Counted from the first letter of the whole stretch, positions 26,115-63,938 are shown. The stretch is 63,938 nt of DNA, filler included, from Reclinomonas americana ATCC 50394 (GCA_048213135.1; 6 parts of 2 records of this genome joined end to end with filler, not necessarily neighbours in it), one strand, 5' to 3'. A program made the numbers and translations. Notes: generated by a model not told the origin, from the sequence alone.

Positions 26115-26538
26115 CTGCGAAGGTGGGTGAATGAGGGAAATAGAGGGTGAGGGAAAGGAAAGAGGGAAAGGAAAGAGAGGGAAAGGGCAAAAGGACAAGA
26201 GGAAAGGAAAGAGAGGATTTTGGGGGAGAGAGACGGAGAGAGGGAGAGGCGAAGGACAAGAGGAAAGGGGGGGAGGCAAAGGCAAGAGAGGAAGATGGGA
26301 GGGAGAGAGAAAGAGAGAGAGACTGAAGGGGGAGAGAGAGAAGCAGAGAGAGAGAGGAAAGGGCAAGAGGGAAAGGGGGAAAAGCAAAAGAAAGAGAGGG
26401 ATGGGAGAAAAGGGAAAGGGCAAAAGAACAAGAGGAAAGGGGAGAGGGAGAGCGAGGGAATGGCCAAGAGAGAAAGGAAAGAGAGGATTTTTGGGAGAGA
26501 GAGAGAGAGAGAGAGAGANNNNNNNNNNNNNNNNNNNN

Positions 26539-27396
26539 GGCGCACAAGGATTCCATGCCAGTGTCCGATATCGCCGACGAGTATCTGTTCTCTCTTGTCG
26601 GCGCGCTGCTGGAGGCTCTTTCGTACGGTGAGTCGAAGAAGAAAAGGGAGAGGTGTTAGATCATTTGATCCCTACCCATCTTTTCTATACCTTGCCCTTG
26701 TAGTGTGACTTTATAGTTGTTCTCTACCCCTTTACCCTTGACCCCTTACCCTTGCTCCGTCGAGAAACCCGTCACCCGGTCACCAGGGTGCTGTGACCGT
26801 CAATGAGGAAATCTGGGTAGGAACAAAAGTTCCAACAGAGGAAGAAGACGAACAAGATGAGACGTGCACTACCTAACAGAATCCGTGCGCGCAGCGTCGG
26901 CACTCACCAACGTCGCGCTCGTCATTGACTACGTCGGCCGACCGCTGCTGGATATTGTGTGTGCCATGACCGAAAAAGGGAGGCTCTCTGGTCGAGGTGT
27001 GTTGCCCGCCCACTGTGCTGGTGTGTCCAGGCGTTTTAATCTTGGCTTGTCTGTTTTGCAGTTCGGTCTCGGATGTGGCTCCTGTTGCGGTGCATTCTCG
27101 ACGGAGCTGGCGGACGGCGGCGGCAAGTCGACGAGTATTTGTTCATGCAGGTGCGCAGTGCGTCGACATCACACAAGCATGTCGACAACCGCGAGTCGTC
27201 GCTGCGTGTGTGGGAGGTCCTCCGCCGCATGTGCGCCGATGAGCTGGATCGCGAGGAGGCGCAACCGGGTGGACTCGATGCTGACGTGCTGCGGGCGATC
27301 CGATATGTCTATGCGCCGCCGTGGCCAGCTGATGAGGGTGACGACTCGCGCTGCGCGCGGCAAGAACTGGCGCGAATGATGGAGGATGAGCTGTAG
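26539..27396 (+). CDS. Probable 3' exons of F-box protein copy 2 (contig inverted)
   Basis: Helical coding fragments AHKDSMPVSDIADEYLFSLVGALLEALSY and ...LRVWEVLRRMCADEL...ELARMMEDEL*. The exact splice path is not resolved. Confidence 0.5.
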
Positions 27397-30137: not shown

Positions 30138-30175
<38 letters not shown>

Positions 30176-34187: not shown

Positions 34188-34838
34188 TTGAGAGAGAGGG
34201 AGAGGAGGGAGAGAGTNNNNNNNNNNNNNNNNNNNNNNNNNNNNNNNNNNNNNNNNNNNNNNNNNNNNNNNNNNNNNNNNNNNNNNNNNNNNNNNNNNNN
34301 NNNNNNNNNNNNNNNNNNNNNNNNNNNNNNNNNNNNNNNNNNNNNNNNNNNNNNNNNNNNNNNNNNNNNNNNNNNNNNNNNNNNNNNNNNNNNNNNNNNN
34401 NNNNNNNNNNNNNNNNNNNNNNNNNNNNNNNNNNNNNNNNNNNNNNNNNNNNNNNNNNNNNNNNNNNNNNNNNNNNNNNNNNNNNNNNNNNNNNNNNNNN
34501 NNNNNNNNNNNNNNNNNNNNNNNNNNNNNNNNNNNNNNNNNNNNNNNNNNNNNNNNNNNNNNNNNNNNNNNNNNNNNNNNNNNNNNNNNNNNNNNNNNNN
34601 NNNNNNNNNNNNNNNNNNNNNNNNNNNNNNNNNNNNNNNNNNNNNNNNNNNNNNNNNNNNNNNNNNNNNNNNNNNNNNNNNNNNNNNNNNNNNNNNNNNN
34701 NNNNNNNNNNNNNNNNNNNNNNNNNNNNNNNNNNNNNNNNNNNNNNNNNNNNNNNNNNNNNNNNNNNNNNNNNNNNNNNNNNNNNNNNNNNNNNNNNNNN
34801 NNNNNNACTGCGGAAATATTAGCAGCAAGTTATTTAAT

Positions 34839-43800: not shown

Positions 43801-44394
43801 GCCTGAATCATCAGAGGATTGAGAAGTGCACAAGCTGCGTGTCCCCTCTGTCAATACCAACGCACCTGCAACCACCGCCAAGTCAATCGGCGCCCAGCCC
43901 ATCTTGTCGACCTGATTCAGCGCCGCGTCGCACTCCAGCAGCACCTGCACGCATTGCGGGCGGGGGCTGACGGCGGCGAGGTGGAGGGGGGTGAGGCCCA
44001 CGCGGTCGCGTACATTGACAACGGCCTCGTGGTCGAGGAGAATGGCTGCGAGAATGAGGGAGAAGGCGTGGGTGAGGGAAATGGAGGGAGAAGACAGGGG
44101 AAGGTGAGGGAGAAGACTGGGGAAGGGGAGGGGGAGACAGGAGAAGGGGAGAGAGGAGACAGGGGAAGCGGAGACTAGACAGGAAAAGGGGGAAGTGAGG
44201 GGAGACGGAGATGGGCTAGTTGGCGTTGGGGCTTGCCGAATCGCAACCCAATCAAGTCGTCAACGTGAGGAACACTGGAAAACACACGAATGCTCACATT
44301 ACGAGAGTTCTTAAGGGAAAAGCGAGAAAGGGAGCAAGGGAGGTGAGAACAGCAATGAAGTGGGAAACCGGAAACGAACGCAGTCGCCACAAAG

Positions 44395-44441
<47 letters not shown>

Positions 44442-47400
44442 GAAGGAGATCTCTGTTGCGAAGGCGCAGATGATGAGGGGGAAGACAGGCGTGAAAATGA
44501 CCGGTGGAAATAGGGTGAAAGAAAGAGTCGAACGCAGTCGCGGGCGGAGAGAGAGAGACATACGCGCGCGCTCTGTCCTATACACACACGGAGATCCAAC
44601 TGACCAACGATTTCCACAAATCCCAATCCAGCAGCAGTGTGCAGAGGCGTCCGCAAGTGCACGTCGGCCACATTGGACGACGCGCCCATGTCTACCAGTT
44701 TAGAGACGCAGAGATCGTGATTACCGGCGCATGCCAGGTGCAACGCACTGCATGACAAGGAGATGAGCACCCAATATGAAACTAAAGATGGCAGGATGAG
44801 TGACGCAACGTGCGACCGGCATCGTTCTGTACATCCACCATGGCGCCATCGGCCAGCAGTCTCTCCACGCACTCTGAGTGACCACCGGCACACGCCTCGT
44901 GGAGAGCCGTGTACCCGTTTTCACCCGGTTCGTTGATCCGCACGCCGAAACCCAGCAGCACGGAGAGGCAGCCTGCAAAAATGAAAGTGAGAAGGGGGAG
45001 AGGGGGAGAGGGGGAGAGGGGGAGAGGGGGACGAGGAAGTGAGAGTACGCAAGGAAGAATGAGAGGAGCACAAGCACGCGAGACAGGCGCAGGAAAGGGA
45101 GAGCAGGAGAAGTATGCAAGGAAGCTCAAGTGGGAGAGGGCGAAGAGATGACTTCCAACAAACCAGCATGTCCTAGTCGCGCGGCATAGTGCAGCGCCGT
45201 GCACCCTGACTCGTCCTTCCCATCCAGATTATTCAATACTGTACACAGGGCATCCACAGCTGTCGCATGATTGTGGATTACCGCCTCGCGCAGGCACGCA
45301 GAGCCACTCTGACCACGCGTGTCGGCGCCGTAGTCGGCAAGCAGTCGCACGCAGTCGGTGTGACCTAAGATACACAGAAGGTGAACAATCATTCCATCAA
45401 AGAAAGGAGGAGATTCCGCGCACCATGTCGACCCGCCAAGAAGAATGGAGCCGCGCCATACTTGTCCGTCACCTTGGCGCTCGCTCCACGTCGCAATAAT
45501 ATGGCCAACACGTCGGCACGTCCGTGCATGGCGGCGAGGTGCTGCGCGGTGCGCGAGTGTGTTGCTTCGCGGGTGTCGACCACGGCGCCTGTGGGAGGGA
45601 GAATTTTGGAAAGAACAATGAGAAGGCGAAGGCTTTCCTTCTCCCTCTTTCTCTTTCCTTCTCTCTCTTCTTCACTCACTGCTCTCTGATAACTCTTTCC
45701 TCTCTCTCCCCCTCTTTCCCTACTCTTTCCTTCTCTCTCTCTCGCTCTCTCTCTCTCTCCTCCTTTCCTCCCTCCCTCCTCTCTCTCTCCCTCTCCCTCC
45801 CTTTCTATGGGGGAAAAGGTCGCCCTTCTCAATTCTCACTCACCACAATCCATCAGCGCGGACAGCGCCCGCGCCTTGCCCGCGACGCATGCTAGCAGGA
45901 GCGGTGTAAAACCGGACTTGTCGCGCCTCTCGAGAATCAAGTCGCGCCGGAACTGCAGTGCGTTCTGATTCTGCAGCGTCTTGTCGGCGGCAGTCGCCTC
46001 CTTTGAGAAATCTGGCGACAGCGAAAGGGTGAGCTGGGGGAGGAAGGAGATGGAGAGTTGTGGCAGCAACGCAACCCATGGACGCCAGATCGGGCGGATC
46101 CTTTTGGAAGCGCGTCCTAAAGTACTCTACATAAAGCGCCGTGGTCCATCGCGTGCAGCCCTCCTCGACCAGGGTGCGCACCGTTACAGGTTCGTCGGCC
46201 AGTACGGCGAGGTGGAGAGGGGTGAAGCCGTGGGATTGGTCGCCGGCGAAGATCTGAGGGAGGGGTGAGGGGGGTGAGAAGCGGGAAGGGGATAAGAAAG
46301 GGGAAGGGGGTAAGAAGGTGGAAGGGGGTAAAGAAGGAAGATTAGCGCAAAGAAAGAAGCGAGAAAGTGATGCAGGAGAAAGTGAAGCAGGACAAAGGTC
46401 AACGAGTGTAAACACGCCCGACAAAGATAGTGAGAATGAGTTGCAGGACCGAGGAAGACAGAGACGTGGAAGAGTACTCTTGATAGAAGAGATGACAGAG
46501 AGACAGTGAGCTTCTCTTTCTTACTTTCGGCGAGAGAGAGATAGATTGATAACAGTCCCACTCTGTTCCCCCATCTCCCCACCACAAACCTCACTTCGTT
46601 TCCTCAACAACAGGCGGCACATATTGGCATCTCCCGTCGCCGCGGCCATGTGCAACGGCGTAAAGCCCTCGGCGTCGGCCGTGTTGGGTGACGCCTACAA
46701 TCGCCTTGTGTGAGCACCCAACACATCGTGGCAAGCAAGTTCGCCAACCACCGCAACGCACCTCCTTATTCAACAAAAATTCCGATAAATCCATCTGATG
46801 CGACAACACCGCGTAGTGCAACGCGGTGCGATCGCGTGAGTCGCCCGAGTCCACTTGGGCGCCGTTCTCCAATAAAACTTCTGCAATCTGTGGGACAATA
46901 AAGATGAGAAAAGGGAATCCCGAACTCATTCCACCCTTCTCCATTCCTTCCACTTGTTGCTGCAATTGGAGACGTCCCTCTCCCCCTTCTCAACGGCCTC
47001 ATTTCTCCTACATGCTGCTGCTGCTGCAACTTCAATTGGAGGCTGCCCCTTCTAAGCTGTCTCATTCCTTCCAGCTGCTGCTGCTGCCGTAATTGGTGAC
47101 TTCCTTACCCAGCCCGCCCACTCTCCCTTCTCAGCAACCTCATTCCTTCCACCTCAACTGTACTTAGAAAGTTGCCACCCCACTCTTCCCTTCTCCCTTT
47201 CTCTCATGCTGCCGTTGCTGTAACTGGAGATTTCTCCTGTCCAACTCCCCTTCCAGAGTCATTACCTGCTGCTGCTCCTTTGATTAGAGACTACCCCCCT
47301 CTCTCTTCTCAGCGCCCTCATTCCTTACACTTGCTTCTGCCGGTGCTGTAATTGACGACTCACTGCCCACCGCATCCCCCCCTCTCAGATGCCTCTTTCT

Positions 47401-50400
47401 TTCCCCTTTCTGCAACTGGAGACTTCCCCACGCAGCCCACCCCCCTCTCCCCTCTCAGCCATATTCCTGCCGATGTTGCAGAGACTCCCCCCACAAAGCA
47501 AGAAACCCTTCTCCCAACCCGCCACTGTCATTAGAGAACTCCTCCTATCCCCCTCACCTTTCGATTGCCCTTGGCATACGCCCAATGCAGCGGCGTCAAC
47601 TGATTGGCATCCACCTCATCCACTGGCGCGCCGTGACGAAGCAAGGCCATCACCATCTCCGGTGTGCCCGCGTACGCCGCATAGTGCAGTGGCGTGCGCC
47701 CTAAAGAATCTGTACAGACGACCACGGCACCGTAGCGGACCAGCAAATCGATGCACTGGTCGGCCTTGGTTGAGGGGGCTGCGAAATGGTCAGCGAAATC
47801 AACAATCTTGAAAAAAGACGTTGGATAATCGCACCTCTCGCGCGCGGTGACGAGGTCGACCGCATGGAGTGCTGGGGTGAGAATCGCTCGCCGGGGGTGG
47901 GTGGCGAGGAGATGCGACCGGGAGGGCTGGAGGCTCGGCCGAGGGAGGGTGGTGACATAGGGGGAAAGATGGAGGTGGCGGTGGAGGAAGAAAGAGAAGA
48001 GTCGTCGAAGCGGCCGAGGGCGGCGGCGAGGAGGTGGACGGGGAAGCGGCAGAGGTGGTCAATGACCTGCCAAAGAGGGAAGGGGTGAGAGAATAGAAGA
48101 AGGGGGGGAGGGAAGGGGGAGAAGGAGAAGGGGAGAAAAGAGGGGAAGGAGAAGGGGGAAGGAGAAGGGGAAATGGAGAGAGGGGAAAGGAGAAGGGGGA
48201 AAGGAGAAGGGGGAGAAGGAGAAGGCGTAGAAGGAGAAGGGGGAGGAGAACGGGGAAGGAGAACGGGGAGAAGGAGAAGGGAGAAGGAGAAGAAAGGAGA
48301 ACGAGGATGTGAAGGGGGAACGAGAGGGGGTGCAAGAAGAAGGGGGGAAAGAGAAGGGGGAAAGAACAGGGGGAAGGCGCAGGGAGCAAAGTGAGAGAAA
48401 AGACAGAAAAAAAGGAGGCTGAGGACAGTGAACGAAAGAGAGGGAACCAGCGAACAAGGGGGAAAGAAGTGAATGTGGGGGGACTAAACAGACAGGGAGC
48501 GACACTGACTGTCACGGGAACGAATCACAAGTGATGAAGAAGCAAAGAGTGTTGTGCCGTCCCTCTCGTCCACGCAATCACTCTCTTGGCACAATTCCAC
48601 TCACCATCGGATTCGCGCCACCCTCCAACAACGCCGTGATGCATTTCACCGAGCAGCGCCCTGCACACGCGTCGTGCAGTGGCGTGAAGCCGTTCTTTCG
48701 CGGTGCGTTGGGATTGCCGACGTTGAGACCGCTAAATGCTTGCGTGCTCTCGCCGGCCTCCGACAGTGCTCCACCTCCGTTTCCCAACAATAGCCGTACG
48801 ATGGCTGCGTGTCCGTTGCGTGCGGCAATGTGCAGTGCGGTGCATCCCTGAGGAGGAGAGGGTGAGGCATGAGGGAGAAGGGAGAAGAGAGAGAAGAAGG
48901 AGGGAGGGAGAAAGGAAGAAGAACAGAGGAATGAGAGAGGAAAAAACGAGACGGAGTGGAGAAGAAGAGAGAAAACAAGGAAGAAGGGAGAATAATGTAC
49001 GAAAGTATGTGTAACAAACCAGAGCTGAGGAAGAAGAAGAGGGAGAGGATGTGAAGCAGGCAAAGAGAGATCACGAAGAGCAGAGTGAGAGAGAGTGAGA
49101 AAGAAGAGAGGAGAGAGAGAAAAGGAAAAAGAAGTGAGGAGAGAGAAGAAGAGAGGAGGGAGAAAAGGAGAAGGAAGACTTGAGAGAGAGAAAGAGAACA
49201 AGAGGGAGACGATATAATGCAAAATGACTCAGGGCAGATCGAGAAGCAGGGAGAAGAAGAGAGGAGAGGAAGAGACAGAAAAAGAGGAGAGAGAACGAGG
49301 TAGGAAGAAGGCAGAAGCAAGGAAGAAAGAATGTGCAAGGAACCACAGGTGAGAAAGAAGAAGAGGGAGAAGAGATGAAGCAGACGGAAGACCAAGAAGA
49401 GCACGAATGCAGAAGAAGAGAAAAGAAGAGAGGAGCGGAAGAGAGAAACGGAGAAGGGGACAAGAGATGAAGCAGAATACGACAGACCAAGAGGAGCACA
49501 AGCAGAATGAAGAAGAAGAGGAGCAGAACAAGAGCAAGATGGCAGAAGAAAGCAAGCAAAAATTGCAGCGAACGAGAGGTGAGGAGAAGAAGCAGGGACA
49601 AGAGATGAAGCAGAGGACGAAACACCAAGAAGAGCAGAGCGACAAGAAGGAGAGAGAGAGAGGAAGAGGAGAAGGGAGAAGAGACCACGAGGAGAATGAA
49701 CTCGGGAGAAGGACGATTATACTCTTCCGTCGCCCACGTGTCTCTCACACTCACCGTCTTGGCTCGCACTGCATTCACTTGGGCGCCCACATGCACAAGG
49801 TACGCGGCAATGTCCGCACGTCCGTACGCACAGGCCGTCATCAGCGCCGTTTCACCTCTCCCATTCAGCATGTCCACATCCACAATGTGTCGGTCGGCGG
49901 TCAGTTTTTGCACCACCTGTGCGGATAGAGAAGGGTGTAAGCGGGGGAGCAGCAAGGGTAGTCCTCTCCTCTACAAGAACCTCGAGGTGGCCGTGCTGGA
50001 CGGCAAGGTGCAGTGGGGTGCGACCGAGGCGGTCTTTGGCCGACAGCAGCGCGGTGTGCTTGAAGAGGTAGTAGACGCATTTTTGGCCGCCGTGGCGAGC
50101 GAGGATGTGGGCGCAGTTCCAGGTGTTGTTGTGGGAGTGGCCTCTAGAGAGGGGGAGAAGGGGTGGGTGAGGGGCAAGGGGGAGAATAGGGAAAGGGAAT
50201 GAAGAGGAAAGGGAATGTGGAGGGGAGAGCAAGGAGAGGACAACAGACGAGAAGAGAACAAACAGCAGTTCACACGGGAACGAATGCATCGCGAATGCGA
50301 TTGAACAAGGGACGGACATGTGAGATAGGCGTACAGCGAACCAAACAAGCTCACATATTAGAGAGAGAATGTTCAAGAGCGAGCGAGAATACAGGCGACA

Positions 50401-51182
50401 CGCGGCTGAGTGCACGTGAGTCGACGGAAATAAGGCACTCAAGGATGTGAGCGCACTTCCACGTGTCAATGTGGGAGTGACCCAAGTGGAGGGAATAGAT
50501 GTACGAAAGAGATCATCACCGACACAACCAAGGAGAAAGAGAGAAGATGAAGCACAAGAGTGAGTCAACAGACAACAGGAATTCGACGAAGCGCACAAAG
50601 ATGTGTGGGTGGGCGAAGGTGGAGACGAACGGAAGGGTGAGAGGAGAAGAGCGAGAGGAGGAAATGGAAGCATGAGGAGAAACCGAATGGGGTAATGTCA
50701 GCAGAGTCAAAAGCAATCGGTTGAAAGGGTAAAGTGGAGCTGAAACATCGCACTTGTGAGTGATAAAGGAAAGACATGACACACGGGAGAGGGGAGAGGA
50801 GGAGTCGCGAGAGAGAGAGAGAGAGAGAATGGGAGGGAGATTGCAGAATCAAGTGCATTCAGGAACAGGAGCACAGCGCAAAGGGTCTGCGTGCGAGAGT
50901 GGAGCATGGGGAAACAAAGCAGTTACGAGCGACTGAGTGCACGGGAGTCGCCAGAAGAGGGCACACGAGCATTGTTGTAAGAGTGGCCCGATTGCGGGCA
51001 GCGATGCAAGAGCGTGAGATGAATGCACACGACTTCAGAGAACGAGGAGATGAAGCAGACACGAGACGCAACTCGCGATCCTCCTCTTCGGTGGTGGCTG
51101 AGAGGGCGGTGAGCTGCGCGCCGCTGGAGAGGAGGCCGCGGACGGCCTTGTCGTCGTCGCGGGCAAAGGCGGCGCACAGTTG
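34839..51182 (-). CDS. Very large ankyrin-repeat protein (roughly 30 repeats, many exons; could be more than one gene)
   Basis: Repeated G.TPLH.AA..G...V..LL..GA units in short exons (GRTPLHLAVQHGH, GFTPLHDACAG, GLTPLHLAAV, GATPLHICAANGQ, GRTPLMEAITGGH) separated by pyrimidine-rich introns. Ends AVLEQAHS*. Start not identified. Confidence 0.82.
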
Positions 51183-51479: not shown

Positions 51480-51579
51480 NNNNNNNNNNNNNNNNNNNNN
51501 NNNNNNNNNNNNNNNNNNNNNNNTTAATTAATTAANNNNNNNNNNNNNNNNNNNNNNNNNNNNNNNNNNNNNNNNNNNN
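51480..51579. other. Artificial scaffold linker
   Basis: N44-TTAATTAATTAA-N44. Confidence 0.97.
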
Positions 51580-51680
51580 GAGAGAGAGAGAGAAGGAAGG
51601 AGTGCTTGTTTCCCATCTCTCTCCTCTCTGACACACACATTCTTCTGTTCCTCCTCATCCTTCTGTGCTCTTTCCTCTGG

Positions 51681-51713
<33 letters not shown>

Positions 51714-52078
51714 TCACACACACACACACACACACACAAAATCGCTCTCTCGCACATCTGCATATCGAATATCGCAACACACACACACTCAGCGAAAAGG
51801 AGACACTCTCTTTCACACACAAAGCCTCTCGCTTCCTCTCTCTCACACACACACTCTCACACAAAGTGTGTCTTGAGTGCGGCCATCTCAGACACACACT
51901 CACTCACTCACTCTTTGTATCTTTTCTTTGTTTGACTGCGCAACTTCATTGAGGTGTCGCTTGTGCTCTGGTTCTGCGGAGGCGCCACTCAGAGAGGGCG
52001 ATGCAGCGCGTCGCATTGTGTGAGTGTGGACAAATTACTGGGAAAACGGTTGTGGGACGGTGGGACGCATTGATTGAG

Positions 52079-52119
<41 letters not shown>

Positions 52120-52444
52120 AGCTGAGACACAATGCAATTAATGACTCCTTGTGAAGATGTGAAGATGCAGAAAGTGCTGTATTTTTGGCTTCGTTTCCTG
52201 CAAGGCAGTTCACTCGGCTGTCAATTACAATCCACCCCCACGCATCACATGCAGCACTGTTTCAACAGTGAACGATCAGAGTCAACACAATGACGGGAGT
52301 TCACTTGGTTTCTCTCAACAGAAAAGAAAGTGAAAAACGCGAGGAGTGTGATAAGACTCCGATCGTATTTTCACTTTATGAAACCATGATATTCCAACAG
52401 TGGAAATCTGGATTGCACCGGCGCGGAACACGAACTTGATTAAC

Positions 52445-53324
52445 TTACAGGCGCGCGGCGTGTTCGTCCTTATCGCGCAGGGCGACAGCCAGCTGAGCCT
52501 GCAGCTGCTCGTGAGCTTGCAGCAGCTCCGCGACTCGCAGCTCCAGTTGGGCATTCTTCTCCTGCTCCTCAGCCTTGCCTCGTTCAAGCACTGCGTTGGC
52601 TTGCTGCAACTGCGTGACGACGTCTTGGTGTTCTCGTCGCTGCCGATCCCACTCCCGCTGCTGCTCCACTCGCTCCTGCTGCGCTGCGGCAAGATCGCGC
52701 TGGAGTTGCGCAAGGAGTGCGTCCTTGTCGGCGAGCTGGCGTGCGACGGTGGGATCATCAACAGCCGACTGTGATTTACGAGAGTGCGGGGGAGACACGG
52801 AGCGGATGTGAGAAGTGAGTTTCACGAGCAACAAGAAGCAGAGAGAGGCACTCTCCTCCGTCTCACCTGGCGTGCTGGCACTGCATATTCGCCAGGAACG
52901 ACACACAAGGACAAACACAGGTGGTGGAGCGTGAGCACGAGCACAATATGCCAATAGACATAATAGAGATCATACCTGCAGGAGGCGGGGATCGCGGCTG
53001 CTGTTGTTGCTGTTGACGTGGTGATGCTGGTTGCGCAGCGAGGCGATCGAGCAACTCGGCCACTTGCTGCTTCCTGTTGTCACGTGCCCATTGAGCCGCC
53101 GTCTTGCCCTTCTTGTTGACCATGGGAATGAGGTCGGGGAAGCGAGTGGCGAGGAGTCGCACAACGGCTTCGTGGCCATTCGCGGCAACATAATGCAGAG
53201 CAGTGGACTGTGGATTGTAGTCACGGCCATTGGAGACCGCCCGCACCATCTCCGGCGGACATCGTCGCTCATCGGCAAGCAACCACTCCACCACGTGCAG
53301 TCGCCCATCGCCGGCAGCAAGCAT
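52445..53324 (-). CDS. Ankyrin/coiled-coil paralog without kinase domain (body A)
   Basis: Ankyrin and Q-rich coiled-coil exons homologous to the kinase copies. Similarity stops at ALRDKDEHAARL*, and no kinase exons follow in 51580-52444. Confidence 0.78.
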
Positions 53325-54059
53325 NNNNNNNNNNNNNNNNNNNNNNNNNNNNNNNNNNNNNNNNNNNNNNNNNNNNNNNNNNNNNNNNNNNNNNNNNNNN
53401 NNNNNNNNNNNNNNNNNNNNNNNNNNNNNNNNNNNNNNNNNNNNNNNNNNNNNNNNNNNNNNNNNNNNNNNNNNNNNNNNNNNNNNNNNNNNNNNNNNNN
53501 NNNNNNNNNNNNNNNNNNNNNNNNNNNNNNNNNNNNNNNNNNNNNNNNNNNNNNNNNNNNNNNNNNNNNNNNNNNNNNNNNNNNNNNNNNNNNNNNNNNN
53601 NNNNNNNNNNNNNNNNNNNNNNNNNNNNNNNNNNNNNNNNNNNNNNNNNNNNNNNNNNNNNNNNNNNNNNNNNNNNNNNNNNNNNNNNNNNNNNNNNNNN
53701 NNNNNNNNNNNNNNNNNNNNNNNNNNNNNNNNNNNNNNNNNNNNNNNNNNNNNNNNNNNNNNNNNNNNNNNNNNNNNNNNNNNNNNNNNNNNNNNNNNNN
53801 NNNNNNNNNNNNNNNNNNNNNNNNNNNNNNNNNNNNNNNNNNNNNNNNNNNNNNNNNNNNNNNNNNNNNNNNNNNNNNNNNNNNNNNNNNNNNNNNNNNN
53901 NNNNNNNNNNNNNNNNNNNNNNNNNNNNNNNNNNNNNNNNNNNNNNNNNNNNNNNNNNNNNNNNNNNNNNNNNNNNNNNNNNNNNNNNNNNNNNNNNNNN
54001 NNNNNNNNNNNNNNNNNNNNNNNNNNNNNNNNNNNNNNNNNNNNNNNNNNNNNNNNNNN

Positions 54060-55531
54060 TCGCGCAGGCGACCGAGGGTGGCAACCTGCGAGGATGGGAA
54101 GAAGAAGGATGAGGAGGAGAGTGGGAAAAAACAGGAGAGGGAGAGACACAGACCTCACTCTCAAACGACTCCAAAGTCCACGGTGCTTCGGGATCGAGCA
54201 CCTTGATGGCCACGTGCATCTCGCGAAGCAGAGTGATGAACACGGCACCTTGGCCACCCTCGCCGACCTTGAGGCGGGGTGAGAATGAATTGGTGGCTTG
54301 CACGATCTCGGGCCACTCGAAGCGCTGCACGGCGGTGTCGACTATGGAGAGTGGGTAATGGGAAGTGAGAAATGGGGTGAGAATGAAGGATGTTGAACAC
54401 TGAGATGAAGACAGAAAGAGGGCAAGAGACGCAGACCTTGAGTGAGGAGGAGATCCTGTCGCAGCTGGGAGATGAGTTGATCCTTCTCTTGCAGCTGCGC
54501 GGTGAGATCGTCCTTGTCGCGCAGAGCCGCAGTCAGCTGAGCCTGCAGATGGCCATGAGCTTGCTGCCACTCCGTCAGAGTCTGCTGCAACTGGGCGTTC
54601 TTCTGCTGCTCAGTGGCGTGAGCTCGCTGCCATTCCGAGTTAGCTTGCTGCAACAGGGCATTCTTCTGCTGCTCACTGGCATGAGCTCGTTGCCACTCCG
54701 TGTTGGCTTGCTGCATTTGGGCGACCTTGTGCTGCTCATCAACCTTGGCTCGCTCAAGCTCCGCGTTGATTCGCTGCAACTGGGCATTTTTCTGCACCTC
54801 TTCGGCCTTGCCTCCTTCGAACTCTGCATTGGCTTGCTGCATCTGAGCGATGATTTCTTCGAGATCTCGTCGCTGTCGGTCCCATTCCCGCTGCTGCTGT
54901 TGTCGCTCCTGCTGCGCTGCCACCAGATCGCGCTGCAGTTGCGCAAGGAGTGCGTCCTTGTCGGCGAGCTGCCGTGCGACGGTGGGATCATCAACAGCCG
55001 ACTGCATTTTTAACGAGAGACACGGAACGGATGTGAGAAGTGAGTTTCACGAGCAACAGGAAGCAGAGAGTGGCACTCTTCGTCTCACCTGCCGTGCTGG
55101 TGCTGCATATTCGCCAGGAATGACACACAAGGACAAACACAGGTGGTGGAGCGTGAGCACGAGCACAACATGCCAACAAACGTAGAGGTCATACCCGCAG
55201 GAGGCTGGGATCGCGGCTGCTGTTGCTGTTGGTGGCGTGGTGGTGCTGGTTGTGCAGCAAGGCGGTCAAGCAAGTTGGCCACTTGCTGCTTTCTCGTGTC
55301 GCGTGCCCATTGAGCCGCCGTCTTGCCCGGCCTGTTGACCATGGGAATGAGGTCGGGGAAACGAGTGGCGAGGAGTCGCACAACGGCTTCGTGGCCGTTC
55401 TTGGCAGCCCAATGAAGAGCAGTGGACTGGCTGTCATTGGTGACCGCCTGCACCATCTCCGGCGGACATCGTCGCTCATCGGCAAGCAGCCACTCCACCA
55501 CTTGCAGATGCCCATTCATGGCAGCCGTCAA
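54060..55531 (-). CDS. Ankyrin/coiled-coil/IRAK-Pelle-like kinase, body B (ankyrins to kinase subdomain IV)
   Basis: STALHWAAKNGHEAVVRLL, coiled coil, then QRFEWPEIVQATNSFSPRLKVGEGGQGAVF, VAIK, FESEVATLGRLR. Ends in GA, which joins C-CGT at 62472. Confidence 0.85.
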
Positions 55532-55631
55532 NNNNNNNNNNNNNNNNNNNNNNNNNNNNNNNNNNNNNNNNNNNNTTAATTAATTAANNNNNNNNNNNNN
55601 NNNNNNNNNNNNNNNNNNNNNNNNNNNNNNN
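55532..55631. other. Artificial scaffold linker
   Basis: N44-TTAATTAATTAA-N44, interrupting an ankyrin repeat right after GWTPL. Confidence 0.97.
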
Positions 55632-55959
55632 CAGTGGCGTCCAACCATAGTCGTCGACCATTTGTGCGAGTTGTGGCCCGACGCCACTCTCCTCCCACAA
55701 ATACTCCAACACAGAGAGATGGCCATAGGCAGCGGCACAGTATAATGCCGAGCTGCCAACAACATCCATCTCCTCTCTCTTCAGCAGTGTTTGTGCGCCC
55801 TCACGCGCCACCAACTCGCGCAGTGCCTTCACATCGCCATCCTTCGCCATCTCGAATGCCTTCTTCCGAGGAGCACTGCCACCAAAGAGGCAAAAGCAGA
55901 AGCGCGAGTGAGATAGTAAAAGAGAGAACGCCACCTGACAACATCACAGCACACCTCAT
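55632..55959 (-). CDS. N-terminal ankyrin exons of an array member (belongs to body A or B)
   Basis: Inferred micro-exon ATGAG, intron, then APRKKAFEMAKDGDVKALRELV...GSSALYCAAAYGHLSVLEYL...GWTPL. Confidence 0.8.
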
Positions 55960-57327
55960 TTTCTGAGAGAAAACAACAGCAGCAGCTCTCTGTCTCTCTC
56001 TCACACACACACACACTCCCTCTCTCTCTCTCTCTTTGCCTTCTCCTCACACACTAATCCGTATGCCTTCGTTGTTTATTCCGATTGTCCTGCTCCAGCG
56101 GACATACCACAAGACGTTGTGTTGTCGCCATAACTCGCGACGAGCAGAGATCAGTGGAGTGTGGATGGCTACATATCATATAACAAGATCTACCCTCGTT
56201 TTCTAACATGAGATTGTGTCAACTGCAAGCCAGCAACAAGACATTTGCCCCGATCAAGCATCATTCCTCGTTGACCCGCAAGGCCAGTGCATTCCTCTCG
56301 TGACTGNNNNNNNNNNNNNNNNNNNNNNNNNNNNNNNNNNNNNNNNNNNNNNNNNNNNNNNNNNNNNNNNNNNNNNNNNNNNNNNNNNNNNNNNNNNNNN
56401 NNNNNNNNNNNNNNNNNNNNNNNNNNNNNNNNNNNNNNNNNNNNNNNNNNNNNNNNNNNNNNNNNNNNNNNNNNNNNNNNNNNNNNNNNNNNNNNNNNNN
56501 NNNNNNNNNNNNNNNNNNNNNNNNNNNNNNNNNNNNNNNNNNNNNNNNNNNNNNNNNNNNNNNNNNNNNNNNNNNNNNNNNNNNNNNNNNNNNNNNNNNN
56601 NNNNNNNNNNNNNNNNNNNNNNNNNNNNNNNNNNNNNNNNNNNNNNNNNNNNNNNNNNNNNNNNNNNNNNNNNNNNNNNNNNNNNNNNNNNNNNNNNNNN
56701 NNNNNNNNNNNNNNNNNNNNNNNNNNNNNNNNNNNNNNNNNNNNNNNNNNNNNNNNNNNNNNNNNNNNNNNNNNNNNNNNNNNNNNNNNNNNNNNNNNNN
56801 NNNNNNNNNNNNNNNNNNNNNNNNNNNNNNNNNNNNNNNNNNNNNNNNNNNNNNNNNNNNNNNNNNNNNNNNNNNNNNNNNNNNNNNNNNNNNNNNNNNN
56901 NNNNNNNNNNNNNNNNNNNNNNNNNNNNNNNNNNNNNNNNNNNNNNNNNNNNNNNNNNNNNNNNNNNNNNNNNNNNNNNNNNNNNNNNNNNNNNNNNNNN
57001 NNNNNNNNNNNNNNNNNNNNNNNNNNNNNNNNNNNNNNNNNNNNNNNNNNNNNNNNNNNNNNNNNNNNNNNNNNNNNNNNNNNNNNNNNNNNNNNNNNNN
57101 NNNNNNNNNNNNNNNNNNNNNNNNNNNNNNNNNNNNNNNNNNNNNNNNNNNNNNNNNNNNNNNNNNNNNNNNNNNNNNNNNNNNNNNNNNNNNNNNNNNN
57201 NNNNNNNNNNNNNNNNNNNNNNNNNNNNNNNNNNNNNNNNNNNNNNNNNNNNNNNNNNNNNNNNNNNNNNNNNNNNNNNNNNNNNNNNNNNNNNNNNNCC
57301 TTTGACTCATTTTCACTTACATTCATC

Positions 57328-60138
57328 TCAAAGCTCCAGCGTAAACTGCCCACACGCCTCGCGCAGTGCACGCATCATATCAAGCACCTCCTGTGAGGTC
57401 GGCCGATCAGGGCGCATGGTCATGCATCGCATGCCGAGTTCAAACATCGGTTCGGCGATGCGCGGCGTCCACTCTGCTCCACTGTCCACCAGTTCCATGA
57501 CGCGCAACGAGGCTGGCGAGTCGTCCCACTCCACAGACCAATCCACCACTGTGGCGACGGGTTTGCCAGTGACCAGCTGGACGAGAACCACACCCATGCT
57601 GTACACGTCGTGCTTGGGTTGTGGACGACGCACACGCATCGCCATGGGGTCCATATAATCCAGGGTGCCGGCGACGGTTGTTGTCTGTGAGATGGGAGGA
57701 GGTGAGAGGGAGGAAGGAAGAGAGCGAGAGGAAAGGTGAAGCTAGCAGACCTTGCCGTCAACAATCGACCTTGCGATGCCAAAGTCACCGAGACATGGCT
57801 CCAGTCGGTGATCGAGGAGCACATTGGAGGGCTTGATGTCGCGGTGCACCACGTTGTTCTGCGAGGAGAGGTGAGGCGAGGAACAAAGCATGAAAGACAA
57901 CAGTGAAAACAGGAGAAAGTGAGAGAGACTTGGAGAGACACGAACAGCACGAGAGCGGCAAGGAGAGAGGAGAGAAGAAGGGCAAGAACAGATAGCAATG
58001 GCTATTCAGAGAGACAACACGTGAGAGTGGGAGAGACAAAAACAGCGAACGAGCGACGAGGAGAGAAGAGGAAGATCGGGTGACGAGAAGGTGAATGGGA
58101 AATGGAGGATGGTTTCCACATCGCACAAACCTTGTGCAGGAACACCACCGCCTCGGCCAGTCCGAGACCAATCTGCACACGCTGCACGACAGAGAGTGGT
58201 GCACGACCGGCGCGTGGCAGTAGCAACAGATCCTCCAAGTTGGGAACTCTGTGTGCTCTCACAGTGAGATGATGATGGAGAAAGTGAGAAGGAGAAGGAA
58301 GAGATGGAACACGCACTGCAGGGCCTTGTAGACGAGACAGCGCGCCTTGTCATCGCCCACCGAGTAGCCGACAAGTGGCACAATGCGACGATCACGCAGG
58401 CGTCCGAGGGTGGCCACCTGCGAGATGGGAAGAAGGGTGAGGAGAAAGTGAGAGAGGGGAAACAGGAGAGAGGAAAGAGACAGACCTCACTCTCAAACGA
58501 CTCCATCGTCCACGGCGCAGCGGGATCGAGCACCTTGATGGCCACGTGCATCTCGCGAAGGATGGAGATGAAGACGGCGCCCTGGCCACCCTCGCCCACC
58601 TTGAGACGGGGGGAGAATGAGTCAGTGGCATGCACGATCTCGGGCCACTCGAAGCGCTGCACGGCAGTGTCGACTGTGGAGAGTGGGTAATGGGAGGTGA
58701 GAATGGGTGAAAGTGAAGGATGCTGACCACTAATATGAAGAAAGAAAGAGGGGAAGAGAAATACCTTGGGTAAGGAGAAGATCCTGTCGCAGCTGGGAGA
58801 CGAGTTGATCCTTCTCTTGCAGCTGCGTTGCGAGGTCGTCCTTGTCGCGCAAAGCCGCAGTCAGCTGAGCTTGCATTTGGCCATGAGCTAGCTGCCACTC
58901 CACATTGGCTTGTTGCAACTGGGCATTCCTCTGCTGCTCACTGGCATGAGCTCGTTGCCATTCAGTGTTGGCTTGTTGCAATTGAACATTCTTCTGCTGC
59001 TCCTCAGCCTTGGCTCGCTCAAGCTCCGCGTTGGCTTGCTGCAACTGGGCATTCTTTTGTTGCTCTCCGTCCATCCCTCGCTCAAGCACTGCGTTGGCTT
59101 GCTGCAGCTGAGCGACAATGTCTTCGTGCTCTCGTCGCTGTCGATCCCACTCTCGCTGCTGCTGTTGTCGCTCCTGTTGTGCTGCGGCAAGATCGCGCTG
59201 CAGTTGCGCAAGGAGTGCGTCCATGTCGGCGAGCTGGCGTGCGACGGTGGGATCATCGCCAGCCGACTGCTATTTACGACAGTGAGGGAGACACGGAACG
59301 GATGTGAGAAGTAAGTTTCACGAGCAACAGGAAGCAGAGAGTGGCTCTCCGTCTCACCTGGCGTGCTGGTGCTGCATATTCGCCAGGAACGACACACAAG
59401 GACAAACACAGGTAGTGGAGCGTGAGCATGAACACAACATGCCAGCAGACGTAATAGAGGACATACCTGGAGGCGGGGATCGCGCCTGCTGTTGTTGCTG
59501 TTGGCGTGGTGGTGCTGGTTGCACAGCGAGGCGGTCGAGCAAGTCGGCTACTTGCTGCCTGTCACAGTCACGTGCCCACTGAGCCGCCGTCTTGCCATAC
59601 TTGTTGACCATGGGAATGAGGTCGGGGAAGCGAGTGGCGAGGAGTCGCACAACGGCTTCGTGGCCTTGCCATGCAGCCCAATGCAACGCAGTGGACTGTG
59701 GACTGTAGTCACTGTCATTGGTGACCGCCCGCACCATCTCCGACGGACATCGTCGCTCATCGGCAAGCAACCACTCCGCCACTTGCAGATGCCCCCCGCA
59801 GGCAGCCCGCATCAGTGGCGTCCAGCCATTGTCGTCGACCATTTGTGCGAGTTGTGGCCCGATACCACTCTCCTCCCACAAATACTCCAACACAGAGAGA
59901 TGGCCAAGCGCAGCGGCAATGAAAAATGCCGAGCCGCCATCCAATCCCATCTTCTCTCTCTTCAGCAGAGTGTGTGCGCCCTCACGCGCCACCAACTCGC
60001 GCAGTGCCTTCACATCGCCTTCCCTTCCCATCACGAATGCTTTCTTTCGACGAGCACTGCCACCAAAGAGGCAAAAGCAGAAGCGCGAGTGAGAGTGAGT
60101 GAGAGAATGCCACCTGACAACATCATAGCACACCTCAT
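57328..60138 (-). CDS. Complete ankyrin/coiled-coil/IRAK-Pelle(RLK)-like Ser/Thr kinase (copy C)
   Basis: About 4-5 ankyrin repeats, coiled coil, then kinase motifs [83 protein letters not shown]. Confidence 0.9.
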
Positions 60139-60518
60139 TTTCTTTGAGAGAAAACAACAGCAGCAGCTCTCTGTCTCTCTCACACACACACACTCTCTCT
60201 CTCTCTCTCTCTCTTTGCCTTCTCCTCACACACTAATCCGTATGCCTTCGTTGTTTATTCCGATTGTCCTGCTCCAGCGGACATACCACAAGACGTTCGT
60301 TGTGTTGTCGCCATAACTCGCGACGAGCAGAGATCAGTGGAGTGTGGATGGCTACATATCATATAACAAGATCTACCCTCGTTTTCTAACATGAGATTGT
60401 GTCAACTGCAAGCCAGCAACAAATCATTCCACCCGATCAAACATCATTCCTCGTTGACCCGCAAGGCCAGTGCATTCCTCTCGTGACTGCCTTTGACTCA
60501 TTCTCACTTACATTCATC

Positions 60519-62472
<1,954 letters not shown>

Positions 62473-62572
62473 NNNNNNNNNNNNNNNNNNNNNNNNNNNN
62501 NNNNNNNNNNNNNNNNTTAATTAATTAANNNNNNNNNNNNNNNNNNNNNNNNNNNNNNNNNNNNNNNNNNNN
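62473..62572. other. Artificial scaffold linker
   Basis: N44-TTAATTAATTAA-N44. Confidence 0.97.
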
Positions 62573-62780: not shown

Positions 62781-63848
62781 TCACGGATCAGCGAGCCTTC
62801 TGTACACCACTACCTCTGCCTCCTCCACAATGAAACAACGCAGCACCATCTCCGGCAGGCAACGCGAATCCACCAGCTCTTCCTCTTCTTCTCCTTCTTC
62901 CTCCTTTCCCTCTTGGATCTCCTGCACGGCGCGCATGGCCACTCGCGCCACGCGAAGCTCCTCCCGCGCAAGGCCACTCGTCGACAGCCACACTCGCACG
63001 GCGCAATCCCACCCGCCACTCACCACGTGCTGCCCGCGGGGAACAACGGCCACCGAGGTCACCGCTTCAGACATCTCCCCCAACCGACGCACCTCCTCCC
63101 CCGCCGCCATCGACCACACTCGCACGGTTTTGTCTTGACTGCCGGTGACGAGGTGCTGATCGTCGGCAGTGACAGCGACAGAGAACACCCAGTCAGTGTG
63201 CCCCTCGAACCGCCGCACCTCGTCCCCGCTCGCCAGTGACCACACTCGCACAGTCATGTCTGAGCTGCCGCTCACCACATGCTGACTGTCGTGAGTGATG
63301 GCAACGGAGAGCACCGCATCCGTGTGCCCCGCCAACCGTCGCACCTTTTCTCCGGTGGCCAGTGACCACACTCGAATCTTGTTATCATGCTCGCCACCGC
63401 CACTCACAATGTGCTCCCCATCTGGGGAGATGTCGACACAGTGCACTGCCTGCGTGTGTCCCTCCAACCGTCGCACTTGCTTTCTGCTCTCGATGGACCA
63501 CACTCGCACTGTCCTGTCCTCACTCCCGCTCACGACATGCTGGCCATCTGGAGCCACCGCGACAGAGAACACCCACGCAGTGTGCTCCTTCCATCGTCGC
63601 ACCTGTTCGCCACTTGAAATATCCCACACGCGCACTGTCTTGTCCACACTGCCACTCACAATGTGTTGGCCATTGGGCGAGACGGCGACAGAGAGAACGG
63701 GACCAGAGTGCCTCTCCAGCCGGCGCACCTCTCTCCCATTGGTAAGTGACCACACTCGCACAGTGCTGTCGGAACCGCCGCTGACTGCATGCAGACTGTC
63801 GGGAGTGATGGCGACAGACCACACTCCACCAATGTGTCCCTCCAGCAC
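62781..63848 (-). CDS. WD40 protein, last exon (7 regular repeats plus helical tail)
   Basis: Regular ~42-aa units VRRLEGHT..V.SVAV.PDGQHVVSGS.DKTVRVWS. Acceptor AG at 63849-63850; the 5' exons lie outside the window. Confidence 0.9.
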   Translation of the reverse strand: MLEGHIGGVWSVAITPDSLHAVSGGSDSTVRVWSLTNGREVRRLERHSGPVLSVAVSPNGQHIVSGSVDKTVRVWDISSGEQVRRWKEHTAWVFSVAVAPDGQHVVSGSEDRTVRVWSIESRKQVRRLEGHTQAVHCVDISPDGEHIVSGGGEHDNKIRVWSLATGEKVRRLAGHTDAVLSVAITHDSQHVVSGSSDMTVRVWSLASGDEVRRFEGHTDWVFSVAVTADDQHLVTGSQDKTVRVWSMAAGEEVRRLGEMSEAVTSVAVVPRGQHVVSGGWDCAVRVWLSTSGLAREELRVARVAMRAVQEIQEGKEEEGEEEEELVDSRCLPEMVLRCFIVEEAEVVVYRRLADP

Positions 63849-63938
63849 CTGCTTGGCGCACAGTGTGAGCAGGTGTGTGCACAGGCCAAGTCTATTTACC
63901 TCTCTCTCTCTCGTCTCTCGTCTCTCTACTGTCATAAC

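What the first reader, a model, noticed from the sequence alone, without database searches (positions are those of the whole stretch)
53060..60050. Hypervariability confined to ankyrin binding-surface positions while non-coding DNA is almost identical
Seen: the paralogs differ at beta-turn and helix-1 positions. Examples: TPL-MLAAGDG / LTAAMNG / MRAACGG; ALH-YVAANG / WAAKNG / WAAWQG; VN-KKG / RPG / KYG; WARD-NRK / TRK / CDR; DVVGSSALYCAAAYG vs GLDGGSAFFIAAALG; plus a 4-aa loop indel. The framework (HEAVVRLLATRFPDLIPMVN) is invariant. Intergenic 56050-56238 and 60230-60420 match except for a 4-nt indel, and the kinase exons are near-identical. Known: these are the concave-face residues randomised in DARPins. 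Inference: diversifying selection on ligand specificity, as in R genes and NLRs.
Basis: partly seen in the sequence, partly recalled or inferred. Interest (0 to 1): 0.82.

Follow-up and report, generated by a model that had tools for sequence, protein, structure and literature searches.

The report
Variable ankyrin surfaces in tandem kinase genes
A small tandem family of eukaryotic genes joins an ankyrin-repeat domain, a long helical stalk and an IRAK/receptor-like kinase; the copies differ mostly at the ankyrin binding face, which suggests each recognises a different partner, but the draft assembly is broken at exactly these places.

Summary
The quoted peptides, the invariant framework, the 4-residue loop indel and the identical intergenic block (187 matches, 0 mismatches, one 4-nt indel) are all in the sequence. 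The region is a minus-strand tandem array of genes for a five-unit ankyrin stack, a polyQ linker, a roughly 160-residue helix with 63-nt repeats, and an active-looking IRAK/Pelle/RLK-like kinase.

Three parts of the claim are overstated.
- Variation is enriched at binding positions, not confined to them: 17 of 26 canonical binding positions vary against 24 of 142 others.
- Introns are only 79-91% identical.
- Kinase exons are alike as protein only (dS 0.42, omega 0.03).

A fixed-sites codon model gives omega 4.5 at the binding positions (p 3e-6). It stays at 3.6 (p 1e-4) when branch lengths are shared with the next exon. A test on amino-acid states alone is borderline under the most conservative baseline.

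Only two or three copies exist per segment. Contigs end exactly at paralog branch points, and an EST-derived protein joins halves that the scaffold separates.

Verdict: diversifying selection plus recombination is likely but not proven.

The parts
57328..60031 (-). Gene C, the only complete copy. Exons are 60031-59467 (ANK + polyQ), 59371-59358 (14-nt micro-exon, inferred), 59269-58765 (coiled coil), then 58673-58486, 58417-58317, 58248-58131, 57858-57751 and 57684-57328 (kinase). The product is 651 aa.
   Evidence: The splice model gives an open 1956-nt CDS. Pfam finds Ank_2 at 1.7e-20 and Pkinase on exons 7 and 8. The donors and the micro-exon are conserved in all 3 copies. There is no RNA evidence.
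59468..60031 (-). ANK domain of gene C. It is a five-unit stack (N-cap, three internal repeats with 4- and 10-residue loop insertions, C-cap) followed by a polyQ tail.
   Evidence: AF2 gives pLDDT 83.2 and pTM 0.79, with helix pairs at 35-42/45-54, 72-79/82-89, 115-122/125-134 and 149-155/159-169. Foldseek top hits are N3C DARPins, with TM about 0.8 normalised to the target.
55632..56306 (-). Contig Y. It holds the upstream region (56306-55851) and an ANK N-half (55850-55632, MAKDGD...GWTPL). It is probably a collapsed copy shared by at least two genes.
   Evidence: It is 92.5% identical to 59813-60489. It ends exactly where X and V begin in homologous coordinates. The EST-derived P0018 matches it 73/73.
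54060..55531 (-). Contig X ('gene B'). It holds ANK C-half 55531-55196, micro-exon 55102-55089, coiled coil 55004-54438, kinase exon 4 54341-54154, and the start of exon 5 from 54085.
   Evidence: Alignment to gene C; coordinates.
52447..53324 (-). Contig V part ('gene A'). It holds ANK C-half 53324-52977, micro-exon 52880-52867, and a shortened coiled coil 52771-52447. The coiled coil ends in TAA, which overlaps a GTAAGT donor-like site. No kinase follows in the contig.
   Evidence: Alignment. tblastn finds nothing of the kinase below 52448. One search gives the coordinates.
60519..62472 (-). 'Gene D'. Kinase exons only (contig W 62472-61807 and the start of contig Z 60923-60519), with an 883-N gap between them. 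It may be the kinase of gene B.
   Evidence: Alignment to gene C. W starts at the base homologous to the one that follows X's last base.
60220..60419 (-). Upstream block identical to 56041-56236 (196/196, plus a 4-nt indel). It lies inside a 458-nt upstream region that is 96.2% identical.
   Evidence: longest exact run 125 nt.
58905..59110 (-). 63-nt (21-aa) tandem repeats in the coiled-coil exon, 3.3 copies here. The same array at 54554-54795 has 3.8 copies, and gene A lacks most of it.
   Evidence: TRF, protein alignment, and a single helix 7-167 at pLDDT 93.3.
55532..55631 (.). Spacer 44N+TTAATTAATTAA+44N between contigs X and Y, inside 'gene B's' ANK exon. The same spacer occurs at 51480-51579 and 62473-62572. 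Plain N gaps lie at 53325-54059, 56307-57298 and 60924-61806.

Best explanation
The region is a tandem family, at least three genes on the minus strand, of cytoplasmic signalling proteins. Each has an N-terminal five-unit ankyrin stack, a polyQ linker, a long helical stalk of variable length built from 21-residue repeats, and a C-terminal IRAK/Pelle/RLK-like Ser/Thr kinase with all catalytic motifs.

Shown here:
- The kinase is under strong purifying selection.
- The ankyrin domain evolves about eight times faster at the protein level.
- Its replacements concentrate on the beta-turn and the end of helix 1, the face that ankyrin proteins use to bind partners.
- At those positions replacements outrun synonymous change.

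Inferred:
- Each paralog binds a different ligand through the ankyrin groove and reports it through the conserved kinase.
- The stalk probably serves as an oligomerising or spacing element.
- Diversity is kept by diversifying selection, while recombination or gene conversion among the tandem copies homogenises the intergenic region and the 5' end of the gene, and reassorts N- and C-halves of the ankyrin domain.
For: Architecture:
- Gene model; Pfam ANK and Pkinase.
- GEGGQG, VAIK, HRDIK and DFG motifs are present.
- The nearest natural solved relatives of both kinase lobes are RLK/IRAK kinases: SYMRK, BRI1, IRAK4 and BIK1; LysM-RLK, IRAK1 and CERK1.
- The stalk is one helix, residues 7-167, at pLDDT 93.

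Selection contrast:
- Kinase omega is 0.03 and 0.13.
- Coiled-coil omega is 0.22-0.37.
- ANK omega is 0.49-0.90.

Binding positions (2, 3, 5, 13, 14, 33; these are the positions at which the two DARPins aligned differ):
- 17 of 26 are variable against 24 of 142 others.
- Pairwise dN is 0.36-1.06 against domain dS of 0.13-0.24.
- ML omega_set is 4.5 against 0.53 for the rest, LRT 21.8.
- With branch lengths shared with the coiled-coil exon, omega_set is 3.6, LRT 14.6.
- Amino-acid-state simulation under omega=1 gives P 0.0013 and 0.0002 for the C-half and 0.0065 for the N-half.
- Codons with two or more changes are enriched in ANK (p 0.007-0.045) but not in the kinase C-D or coiled-coil comparisons (p 0.93 and 0.45). 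Kinase exon 4 is borderline (p 0.08).

Recombination or conversion:
- Divergence dips around the 5' end: upstream 96.2% identical with a 196/196 block, ANK dS 0.13-0.25, against coiled-coil and kinase dS of 0.37-0.58.
- Contig Y leads to two different C-halves.
- The EST-derived P0018 joins Y (73/73) to the A-type C-half, 58/62 by my count from the alignment.
Against: - Domain-wide omega never exceeds 1.
- There are only 2 N-halves and 3 C-halves, and the three pairs are not independent.
- With the highest synonymous branch lengths (coiled-coil only), the amino-acid-state test gives P 0.13 (T1) and 0.025 (T2).
- Against coiled-coil dS, pairwise dN at the set is about 0.8 (C-A) to 2.9 (C-B) times dS.
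- 24 of 41 variable residues lie outside the canonical set. Some, such as F36L, F37Y and I38C, look like conservative core changes.
- Multi-nucleotide changes can inflate omega in codon models.
- Contigs end at paralog branch points and gap sizes are inconsistent with the homologous copy, so phase and copy number are unknown.
- No ligand, no expression data beyond one EST-derived protein, and no further family members were found.
Confidence: 0.55

Rival explanations
1. There is relaxed constraint only. The beta-turn and helix-1 surface positions are the least constrained positions of any ankyrin repeat. They have drifted neutrally since an old duplication. Framework codons look identical because of purifying selection plus later gene conversion, and no selection for new specificities is involved.
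For: Domain-wide omega is 0.49-0.90. Against coiled-coil or kinase dS (0.37-0.58), dN at the set is not clearly above neutral for the C-A and B-A pairs. The conservative simulation gives P 0.13 for T1. These are also the high-entropy positions of natural ankyrin repeats, which library designers chose for that reason (PMC4308713, passages read).
Against: Local synonymous divergence is much lower than divergence at the set codons: omega 4.5 and 3.6, p 3e-6 and 1e-4. 5 of 11 gap-free set codons carry three different residues in three copies, against 0.6-1.8 expected under neutrality. Conversion tracts that homogenised framework codons should also have erased variable codons lying 3-15 codons away, unless diversity was selected for.
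Confidence: 0.25
2. The pattern is an assembly artefact or allelic variation. Reads of a collapsed repeat, or of two haplotypes, were split into contigs at points of difference and strung together. The 'paralogs' and the identical non-coding blocks would then partly be products of the assembler.
For: All contig ends abut exactly in homologous coordinates: Z end/Y start, Y end/X and V start, X end/W start, W end/Z start. Yet they are separated by 100-992 N. The scaffold joins Y to X, while P0018 joins Y to the A type. No sequencing runs could be listed to check this.
Against: Contig Z is gap-free across a kinase 3' end, the intergenic region and a whole gene, so a tandem arrangement is real. 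The three C-halves are about equidistant, with 48/41/37 lineage-specific sites, and 12-14% apart. Kinase copies differ at 53 synonymous sites. That is too much for assembler noise. P0018 independently confirms the Y-type and A-type sequences.
Confidence: 0.12
3. Redundant copies are decaying. Some copies, such as the kinase-less gene A, are degenerating, and the ANK differences reflect loss of function.
For: Gene A's coiled coil is shortened and ends in a stop, with no kinase in its contig.
Against: All ANK frames are open. The framework is invariant, with 21 of 21 residues of HEAVVRLLATRFPDLIPMVN conserved in 3 of 3 copies. Non-set ANK codons are under purifying selection, omega 0.29-0.69. 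An A-type transcript exists.
Confidence: 0.05

Closest known systems
Hypervariable ANK (and TPR, WD) repeats of fungal NLR-like STAND proteins, e.g. Podospora anserina Pa_3_8560 (Dyrka et al. 2014, PMC4986451; abstract and passages read)
   Same: The ankyrin framework is kept nearly identical at the DNA level. A handful of positions on the inner helix and beta-hairpin (concave face) are under positive selection. Recombination or concerted evolution is invoked.
   Different: In the fungal case the variation is among repeats within a gene and among alleles, with repeat-number polymorphism, and the repeats sit behind a NACHT/NB-ARC domain. Here it is among tandem paralogs with a fixed five-unit stack, and the partner domain is a kinase. 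Pfam found no family other than ankyrin and kinase in the pieces scanned.
Designed ankyrin repeat proteins (DARPins, N3C format) and the ANK-N5C library (PMC4308713, passages read; PMC8229355, passages read)
   Same: The fold and size match: Foldseek top hits have TM about 0.8 to the target. The natural variable positions coincide with library positions 2, 3, 5, 13, 14, 33. Position 10 is also randomised in ANK-N5C.
   Different: DARPins are synthetic and built from consensus repeats. The natural domain has 4- and 10-residue loop insertions and also varies at positions 1, 9, 11, 15 and 16. The numbers 2, 3, 5, 13, 14, 33 as 'the DARPin set' are recalled. Here they are supported only by comparing the two DARPin sequences aligned.
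RLK/Pelle/IRAK kinases (IRAK1/4, SYMRK, BRI1, CERK1, BIK1)
   Same: These are the nearest natural solved relatives of the N-lobe exon and the C-lobe exon. The kinase is an RD type with HRDIKPSN.
   Different: The match is modest: E about 1e-5 and about 30% identity. There is no death domain, ectodomain or transmembrane segment. Instead the N-terminus carries ANK plus a coiled coil. None of the 32 nearest kinases in 1.84 billion representatives carries ANK repeats at Pfam E<=1e-12.
Plant NLR / LRR resistance-gene clusters
   Same: Both are tandem arrays with diversifying selection on solvent-exposed repeat residues and recombination among paralogs. This is recalled. PMC8226289 was seen only in a search listing.
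   Different: The repeat type is LRR rather than ANK. The signalling domain is NB-ARC rather than a kinase. No sequence relationship exists.
Kinases that carry ankyrin repeats (ILK, RIPK4/ANKK1, DAPK, Giardia Nek expansion)
   Same: They combine ANK and kinase in one polypeptide. The Giardia Neks also carry coiled coils. This is recalled; PMC3218828 was seen only in a search listing.
   Different: They have different kinase families and domain orders. I know of no report of surface hypervariability among tandem paralogs, but this was not searched specifically.

Membership tests
Ankyrin repeat proteins (Pfam clan Ank) | Significant match to the ANK profiles | tested here: met
   Ank_2 at 1.7e-20 (73.8 bits, cut-off 27.3) and Ank at 6.6e-17.
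Ankyrin repeat proteins (Pfam clan Ank) | Stack of helix-turn-helix plus beta-hairpin units | tested here: met
   The AF2 model has pLDDT 83.2 with four helix pairs and an N-cap. All 500 counted Foldseek matches have E<=0.001, and the top ones are DARPins.
Eukaryotic protein kinases, active | Pkinase profile plus G-loop, VAIK Lys, HRD, DFG | tested here: met
   Pkinase on exon 7 (3.7e-9) and exon 8 (3.2e-8). GEGGQG at 388, VAIK at 405, HRDIK at 502 and DFG at 522 in the model protein. Activity itself was not tested.
RLK/Pelle/IRAK family (TKL group) | Kinase domain groups with IRAK/Pelle/RLK rather than other kinases | tested here: inconclusive
   The best natural PDB hits for both lobes are RLK/IRAK, but at E about 1e-5. 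Aurora A follows at 2e-4. No phylogeny was made.
NLR / STAND receptors | Central NACHT or NB-ARC NTPase domain | tested here: not met
   Pfam scans of the ANK exon, the coiled-coil exon and kinase exons 4, 7 and 8 found only ANK and kinase families. Exons 5, 6 and the micro-exon were not scanned. The complete gene model leaves no room for an NTPase domain.
Gene families under diversifying selection at a binding surface | Omega above 1 at an a-priori defined surface class | tested here: met
   Omega_set is 4.5 (LRT 21.8) and 3.6 (LRT 14.6). The conservative amino-acid-state test is borderline, P 0.13 / 0.025.
Gene families under diversifying selection at a binding surface | Site-model test on many sequences (codeml M7/M8 or the like) | not testable with these tools
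   Only 2-3 copies are available. No further copies turned up in protein collections, metagenomes or read archives.
Coiled-coil proteins | Long uninterrupted helix with repeating pattern | tested here: met
   A single helix spans residues 7-167 at pLDDT 93.3. There are 63-nt (21-aa) tandem repeats. Oligomerisation was not tested.

The most novel reading that the evidence does not exclude
This would be a protist innate-immunity-like sensor family that is neither NLR nor LRR receptor. The sensors would be intracellular ankyrin 'paratopes' wired through a length-variable coiled-coil stalk to an IRAK/Pelle-type kinase. A tandem array would diversify them by positive selection and by modular swapping of ankyrin half-domains. 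A kinase-less ANK-stalk copy (gene A) would act as a decoy or regulator.
Probability: 0.15. Interest if true: 0.75.

Novelty: new variant of a known kind. Interest (0 to 1): 0.48.

Why it matters
If real, this would be a natural counterpart of DARPin libraries coupled directly to an IRAK/RLK-like kinase. It would show that the pairing of a variable repeat surface with a conserved signalling domain in tandem arrays, known from plant R genes and fungal NLRs, has also been built on an ankyrin-kinase chassis in a protist. It gives a small, testable set of natural specificity variants (three C-halves, two N-halves). It also gives a case for studying how recombination and selection act together at the scale of single repeats.

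Tried and rejected
- **More family members: none close.**
  - The search for homologous proteins with the ANK exon, 'longer': 17 hits at E<=1e-10 among 2809 candidates, all generic ANK proteins at 30-42% identity.
  - The same query, 'near': 1 hit among 380 candidates, P0018.
  - Kinase exon 8, 'longer': 0 of 538 candidates at E<=1e-5.
  - phmmer of exon 8 against 1.84 billion representatives: 725 hits at E<=0.001, 32 at <=1e-10, 0 at <=1e-30, best 33% identity.
  - Pfam on the top 32 of these 150 listed hits: 0 with ANK at E<=1e-12.
  - Metagenome scans: none; one generic 34% ANK relative, L001.
- **Whole genome:** none is held.
- **Earlier findings of the scan:** nothing on this genome, sequence or topic.
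- **Three-way site patterns among A, B and C:** 48/41/37 singletons per lineage show only a star-like relationship, not recombination.
- **Single-intron splice model between the ANK and coiled-coil exons:** rejected, because the exon phases do not match. The 14-nt micro-exon restores the frame in all 3 copies.
- **Literature:** the search gave nothing usable. One search did not give the numeric DARPin positions.

Full report
**What the window is**

The window is a eukaryotic draft sequence. It has 25 runs of N totalling 8201 bases. Five of them are spacers of the form 44N+TTAATTAATTAA+44N, which separate different records. No whole genome is held for it.

Between about 52.4 and 62.5 kb, blastn of the window against itself shows a direct repeat whose copies are 83-92.5% identical. 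tblastn with the gene model found no further copy elsewhere in the window. The only other hit is a weak 32% ANK match at 35.6-35.9 kb.

**The gene**

One copy, gene C, lies on a gap-free contig (Z, 57299-60923).
- Eight exons with GT-AG introns give an open 1956-nt reading frame of 651 aa.
- Exon 1 (60031-59467) matches the ankyrin profiles, with Ank_2 at 1.7e-20.
- AlphaFold2 folds it with mean pLDDT 83.2 and pTM 0.79 into an N-cap, three internal repeats and a C-cap.
- Foldseek ranks N3C DARPins first, with TM about 0.8 normalised to the target.
- After a polyQ stretch and an inferred 14-nt micro-exon comes a 168-residue exon. The micro-exon restores the reading frame and is conserved, with its splice sites, in all three copies.
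- That exon is predicted as one helix, residues 7-167, at pLDDT 93.3. It contains 63-nt (21-aa) tandem repeats, 3.3 copies in C and 3.8 in B.
- The last five exons encode a protein kinase. Pfam finds Pkinase on exons 7 and 8, and the GEGGQG, VAIK, HRDIK and DFG motifs are present.
- The nearest natural solved relatives of its C-lobe exon are SYMRK, BRI1, IRAK4 and BIK1, at E 5e-6 to 1.4e-5.
- Those of its N-lobe exon are a LysM receptor kinase, IRAK1 and CERK1. The top row in that search is a designed repeat protein and looks spurious.

I therefore read the family as ANK - coiled coil - IRAK/Pelle/RLK-like kinase. Membership of that kinase family is only suggested, because no tree was made.

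**State of the assembly**

The other copies are pieces.
- Contig Y (55632-56306) holds an upstream region and an ANK N-half.
- Contig X (54060-55531) holds an ANK C-half, the coiled coil and the first kinase exon.
- Contig V (51580-53324) holds a third ANK C-half and a shortened coiled coil that ends in a stop, with no kinase behind it.
- Contig W (61807-62472) and the first 405 bases of Z hold a second kinase.

All contig ends abut exactly in homologous coordinates:
- Y ends, and both X and V begin, right after the TPL codons.
- X ends where W begins.
- W ends where Z begins.
- Z ends where Y begins.

Yet these ends are separated by 100-992 N. My inference is that the assembler broke at branch points between near-identical paralogs. 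On that reading the phase of the pieces, the gap sizes and the copy number are unreliable.

The only close database relative is the EST-derived protein P0018, found as 1 hit among 380 candidates. It equals Y over 73 of 73 residues. It then continues with the A-type C-half, 58 of 62 by my count from the alignment, before a frameshifted tail. The scaffold instead places Y next to X. The simplest reading is that Y is a collapsed copy shared by at least two genes.

**Check of the observation**

All quoted peptides, the invariant HEAVVRLLATRFPDLIPMVN and the 12-nt loop indel are present.

The wider wording does not hold in three respects.
- The whole 458-nt upstream region is 96.2% identical, but introns are only 79.1-91.0% identical.
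- Kinase exons are alike as protein only: 7 nonsynonymous against 53 synonymous differences in 217 codons, dS 0.42.
- 24 of the 41 variable ANK residues lie outside the six canonical binding positions.

**Selection analysis**

Nei-Gojobori estimates by region:

| Region | omega | dS |
|---|---|---|
| Kinase, exons 5-8 (C vs D) | 0.03 | 0.42 |
| Kinase, exon 4 (C vs B) | 0.13 | 0.39 |
| Coiled coil | 0.22-0.37 | 0.37-0.58 |
| ANK N-half | 0.90 | 0.13 |
| ANK C-half | 0.49-0.88 | 0.15-0.25 |

I fixed an a-priori class: positions 2, 3, 5, 13, 14 and 33 of each repeat. These are the positions at which the two DARPin binders aligned to the query differ. That they are the DARPin library positions is recalled. 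The register came from that HMMER alignment and from the helices of the model.

Results for this class:
- 17 of 26 class positions vary, against 24 of 142 others (Fisher 1.3e-6).
- They hold 45.4 of 97.2 nonsynonymous differences, and 0 of 100000 random sets reach this.
- An alternative register for repeat 3 gives the same counts.
- Adding position 10, which is randomised in the ANK-N5C library (PMC4308713, passages read), gives 20 of 30 against 21 of 138.
- Pairwise dN in the class is 0.36-1.06 against domain dS of 0.13-0.24.

A fixed-sites codon model written for this purpose (star tree, F3x4, shared synonymous branch lengths) gives:
- omega 4.5 in the class and 0.53 outside it. The LRT against omega=1 is 21.8, p 3e-6, or 23.2 with the other register.
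- With branch lengths shared with the more diverged coiled-coil exon, omega is 3.6, LRT 14.6, p 1.3e-4.

Multi-nucleotide changes can inflate such tests, and codons with two or more changes are indeed enriched in ANK (p 0.007-0.045) but not in the kinase C-D or coiled-coil comparisons. I therefore also simulated neutral evolution and counted amino-acid states only.
- With local branch lengths: P 0.0013 (T1) and 0.0002 (T2) for the C-half, and 0.0065 for the N-half.
- With shared lengths: 0.025 and 0.004.
- With coiled-coil-only lengths: 0.13 and 0.025.

The signal is real against the local neutral baseline. It is borderline against the highest baseline in the gene.

**Homogenisation**

Divergence dips around the gene's 5' end.
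- Kinase dS is 0.42 and kinase introns are 79-85% identical.
- The upstream region is 96.2% identical, with a 196/196 block.
- ANK dS is 0.13-0.25.
- Coiled-coil dS rises again to 0.37-0.58.

Together with Y feeding two different C-halves and the EST joining Y to the A type, this points to recombination or gene conversion among the tandem copies. Conversion tracts that homogenise framework codons should also erase variable codons a few codons away. Their persistence is itself an argument for selection on diversity. This step is inference.

**Mechanism proposed**

- Shown: the architecture, the conserved and apparently active kinase, the fast ANK evolution focused on the groove, and the stalk length variation.
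- Inferred: each paralog binds a different partner in the ankyrin groove and signals through the kinase; the helix spaces or oligomerises the protein; the kinase-less copy A may regulate the others.

No ligand or phenotype is known.

**Comparison with what is known**

The closest described phenomenon is the hypervariable ANK, TPR and WD repeats of fungal NLR-like proteins. There, positive-selection sites map to the concave face and repeats evolve in concert (Dyrka et al. 2014, PMC4986451, abstract and passages read). In the present case the variation is among tandem paralogs, the stack has a fixed size, and the effector is a kinase rather than a NOD domain.

The 32 nearest kinases in 1.84 billion representatives carry no ANK repeats at Pfam E<=1e-12. 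That is weak evidence that the architecture is uncommon.

Plant R-gene clusters are an analogy recalled from general knowledge.

**Verdict**

It rests on two or three copies in an assembly that is broken at the critical points. I rate it as a new variant of a known kind, with moderate interest.

Noticed in passing
window 62781-63935 (-): There is a WD40 gene next to the array with seven very similar repeats (GH..V.SVA..PDG.H.VSGS.D.TVRVWS). The repeats are 66-70% identical to each other at the DNA level, with differences at a few recurring positions. This resembles the internally conserved WD repeats described for fungal NLR-like genes.
   Followed up: partly
window 10213-16868, both strands: There is a cluster of further WD40-rich reading frames. 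The frame at 12713-14497 (+) matches the WD40 profile at 6.3e-111 with 9 stretches. The frame at 16374-16868 (-) combines pentapeptide repeats with WD40.
   Followed up: partly
window about 34800-50700 (-): There are many ankyrin-repeat exons separated by CT-rich, low-complexity introns. They look like one or more large ANK genes unrelated to the array, with 32% identity to gene C's ANK at 35589-35858.
   Followed up: no
window 25527-26660 (-) and 30113-31300 (-): This is a second duplicated gene pair in the window. Two long frames share a near-identical stretch (…SSFLDM.ADFPRLW…SADSA.LAQWIARFADTFPGI…). Neither has a Pfam family in the part scanned.
   Followed up: no
window 5663-5762, 32310-32409, 51480-51579, 55532-55631, 62473-62572: There are five identical spacers (44 N, TTAATTAATTAA, 44 N). 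The window is a chain of separate records, and one join falls inside an ANK exon with no base missing relative to gene C.
   Followed up: yes
window 52444-52451 (-): Gene A's shortened coiled coil ends in TAA, which overlaps a perfect GTAAGT donor-like site. It may be a kinase-less ANK-stalk protein or may splice to an exon not recognised here.
   Followed up: partly
window 4088-4759 (-) and 2685-3293 (-): These are ordinary genes: a small Kdo/Bud32-like kinase frame and a class I/II aminotransferase fragment.
   Followed up: no
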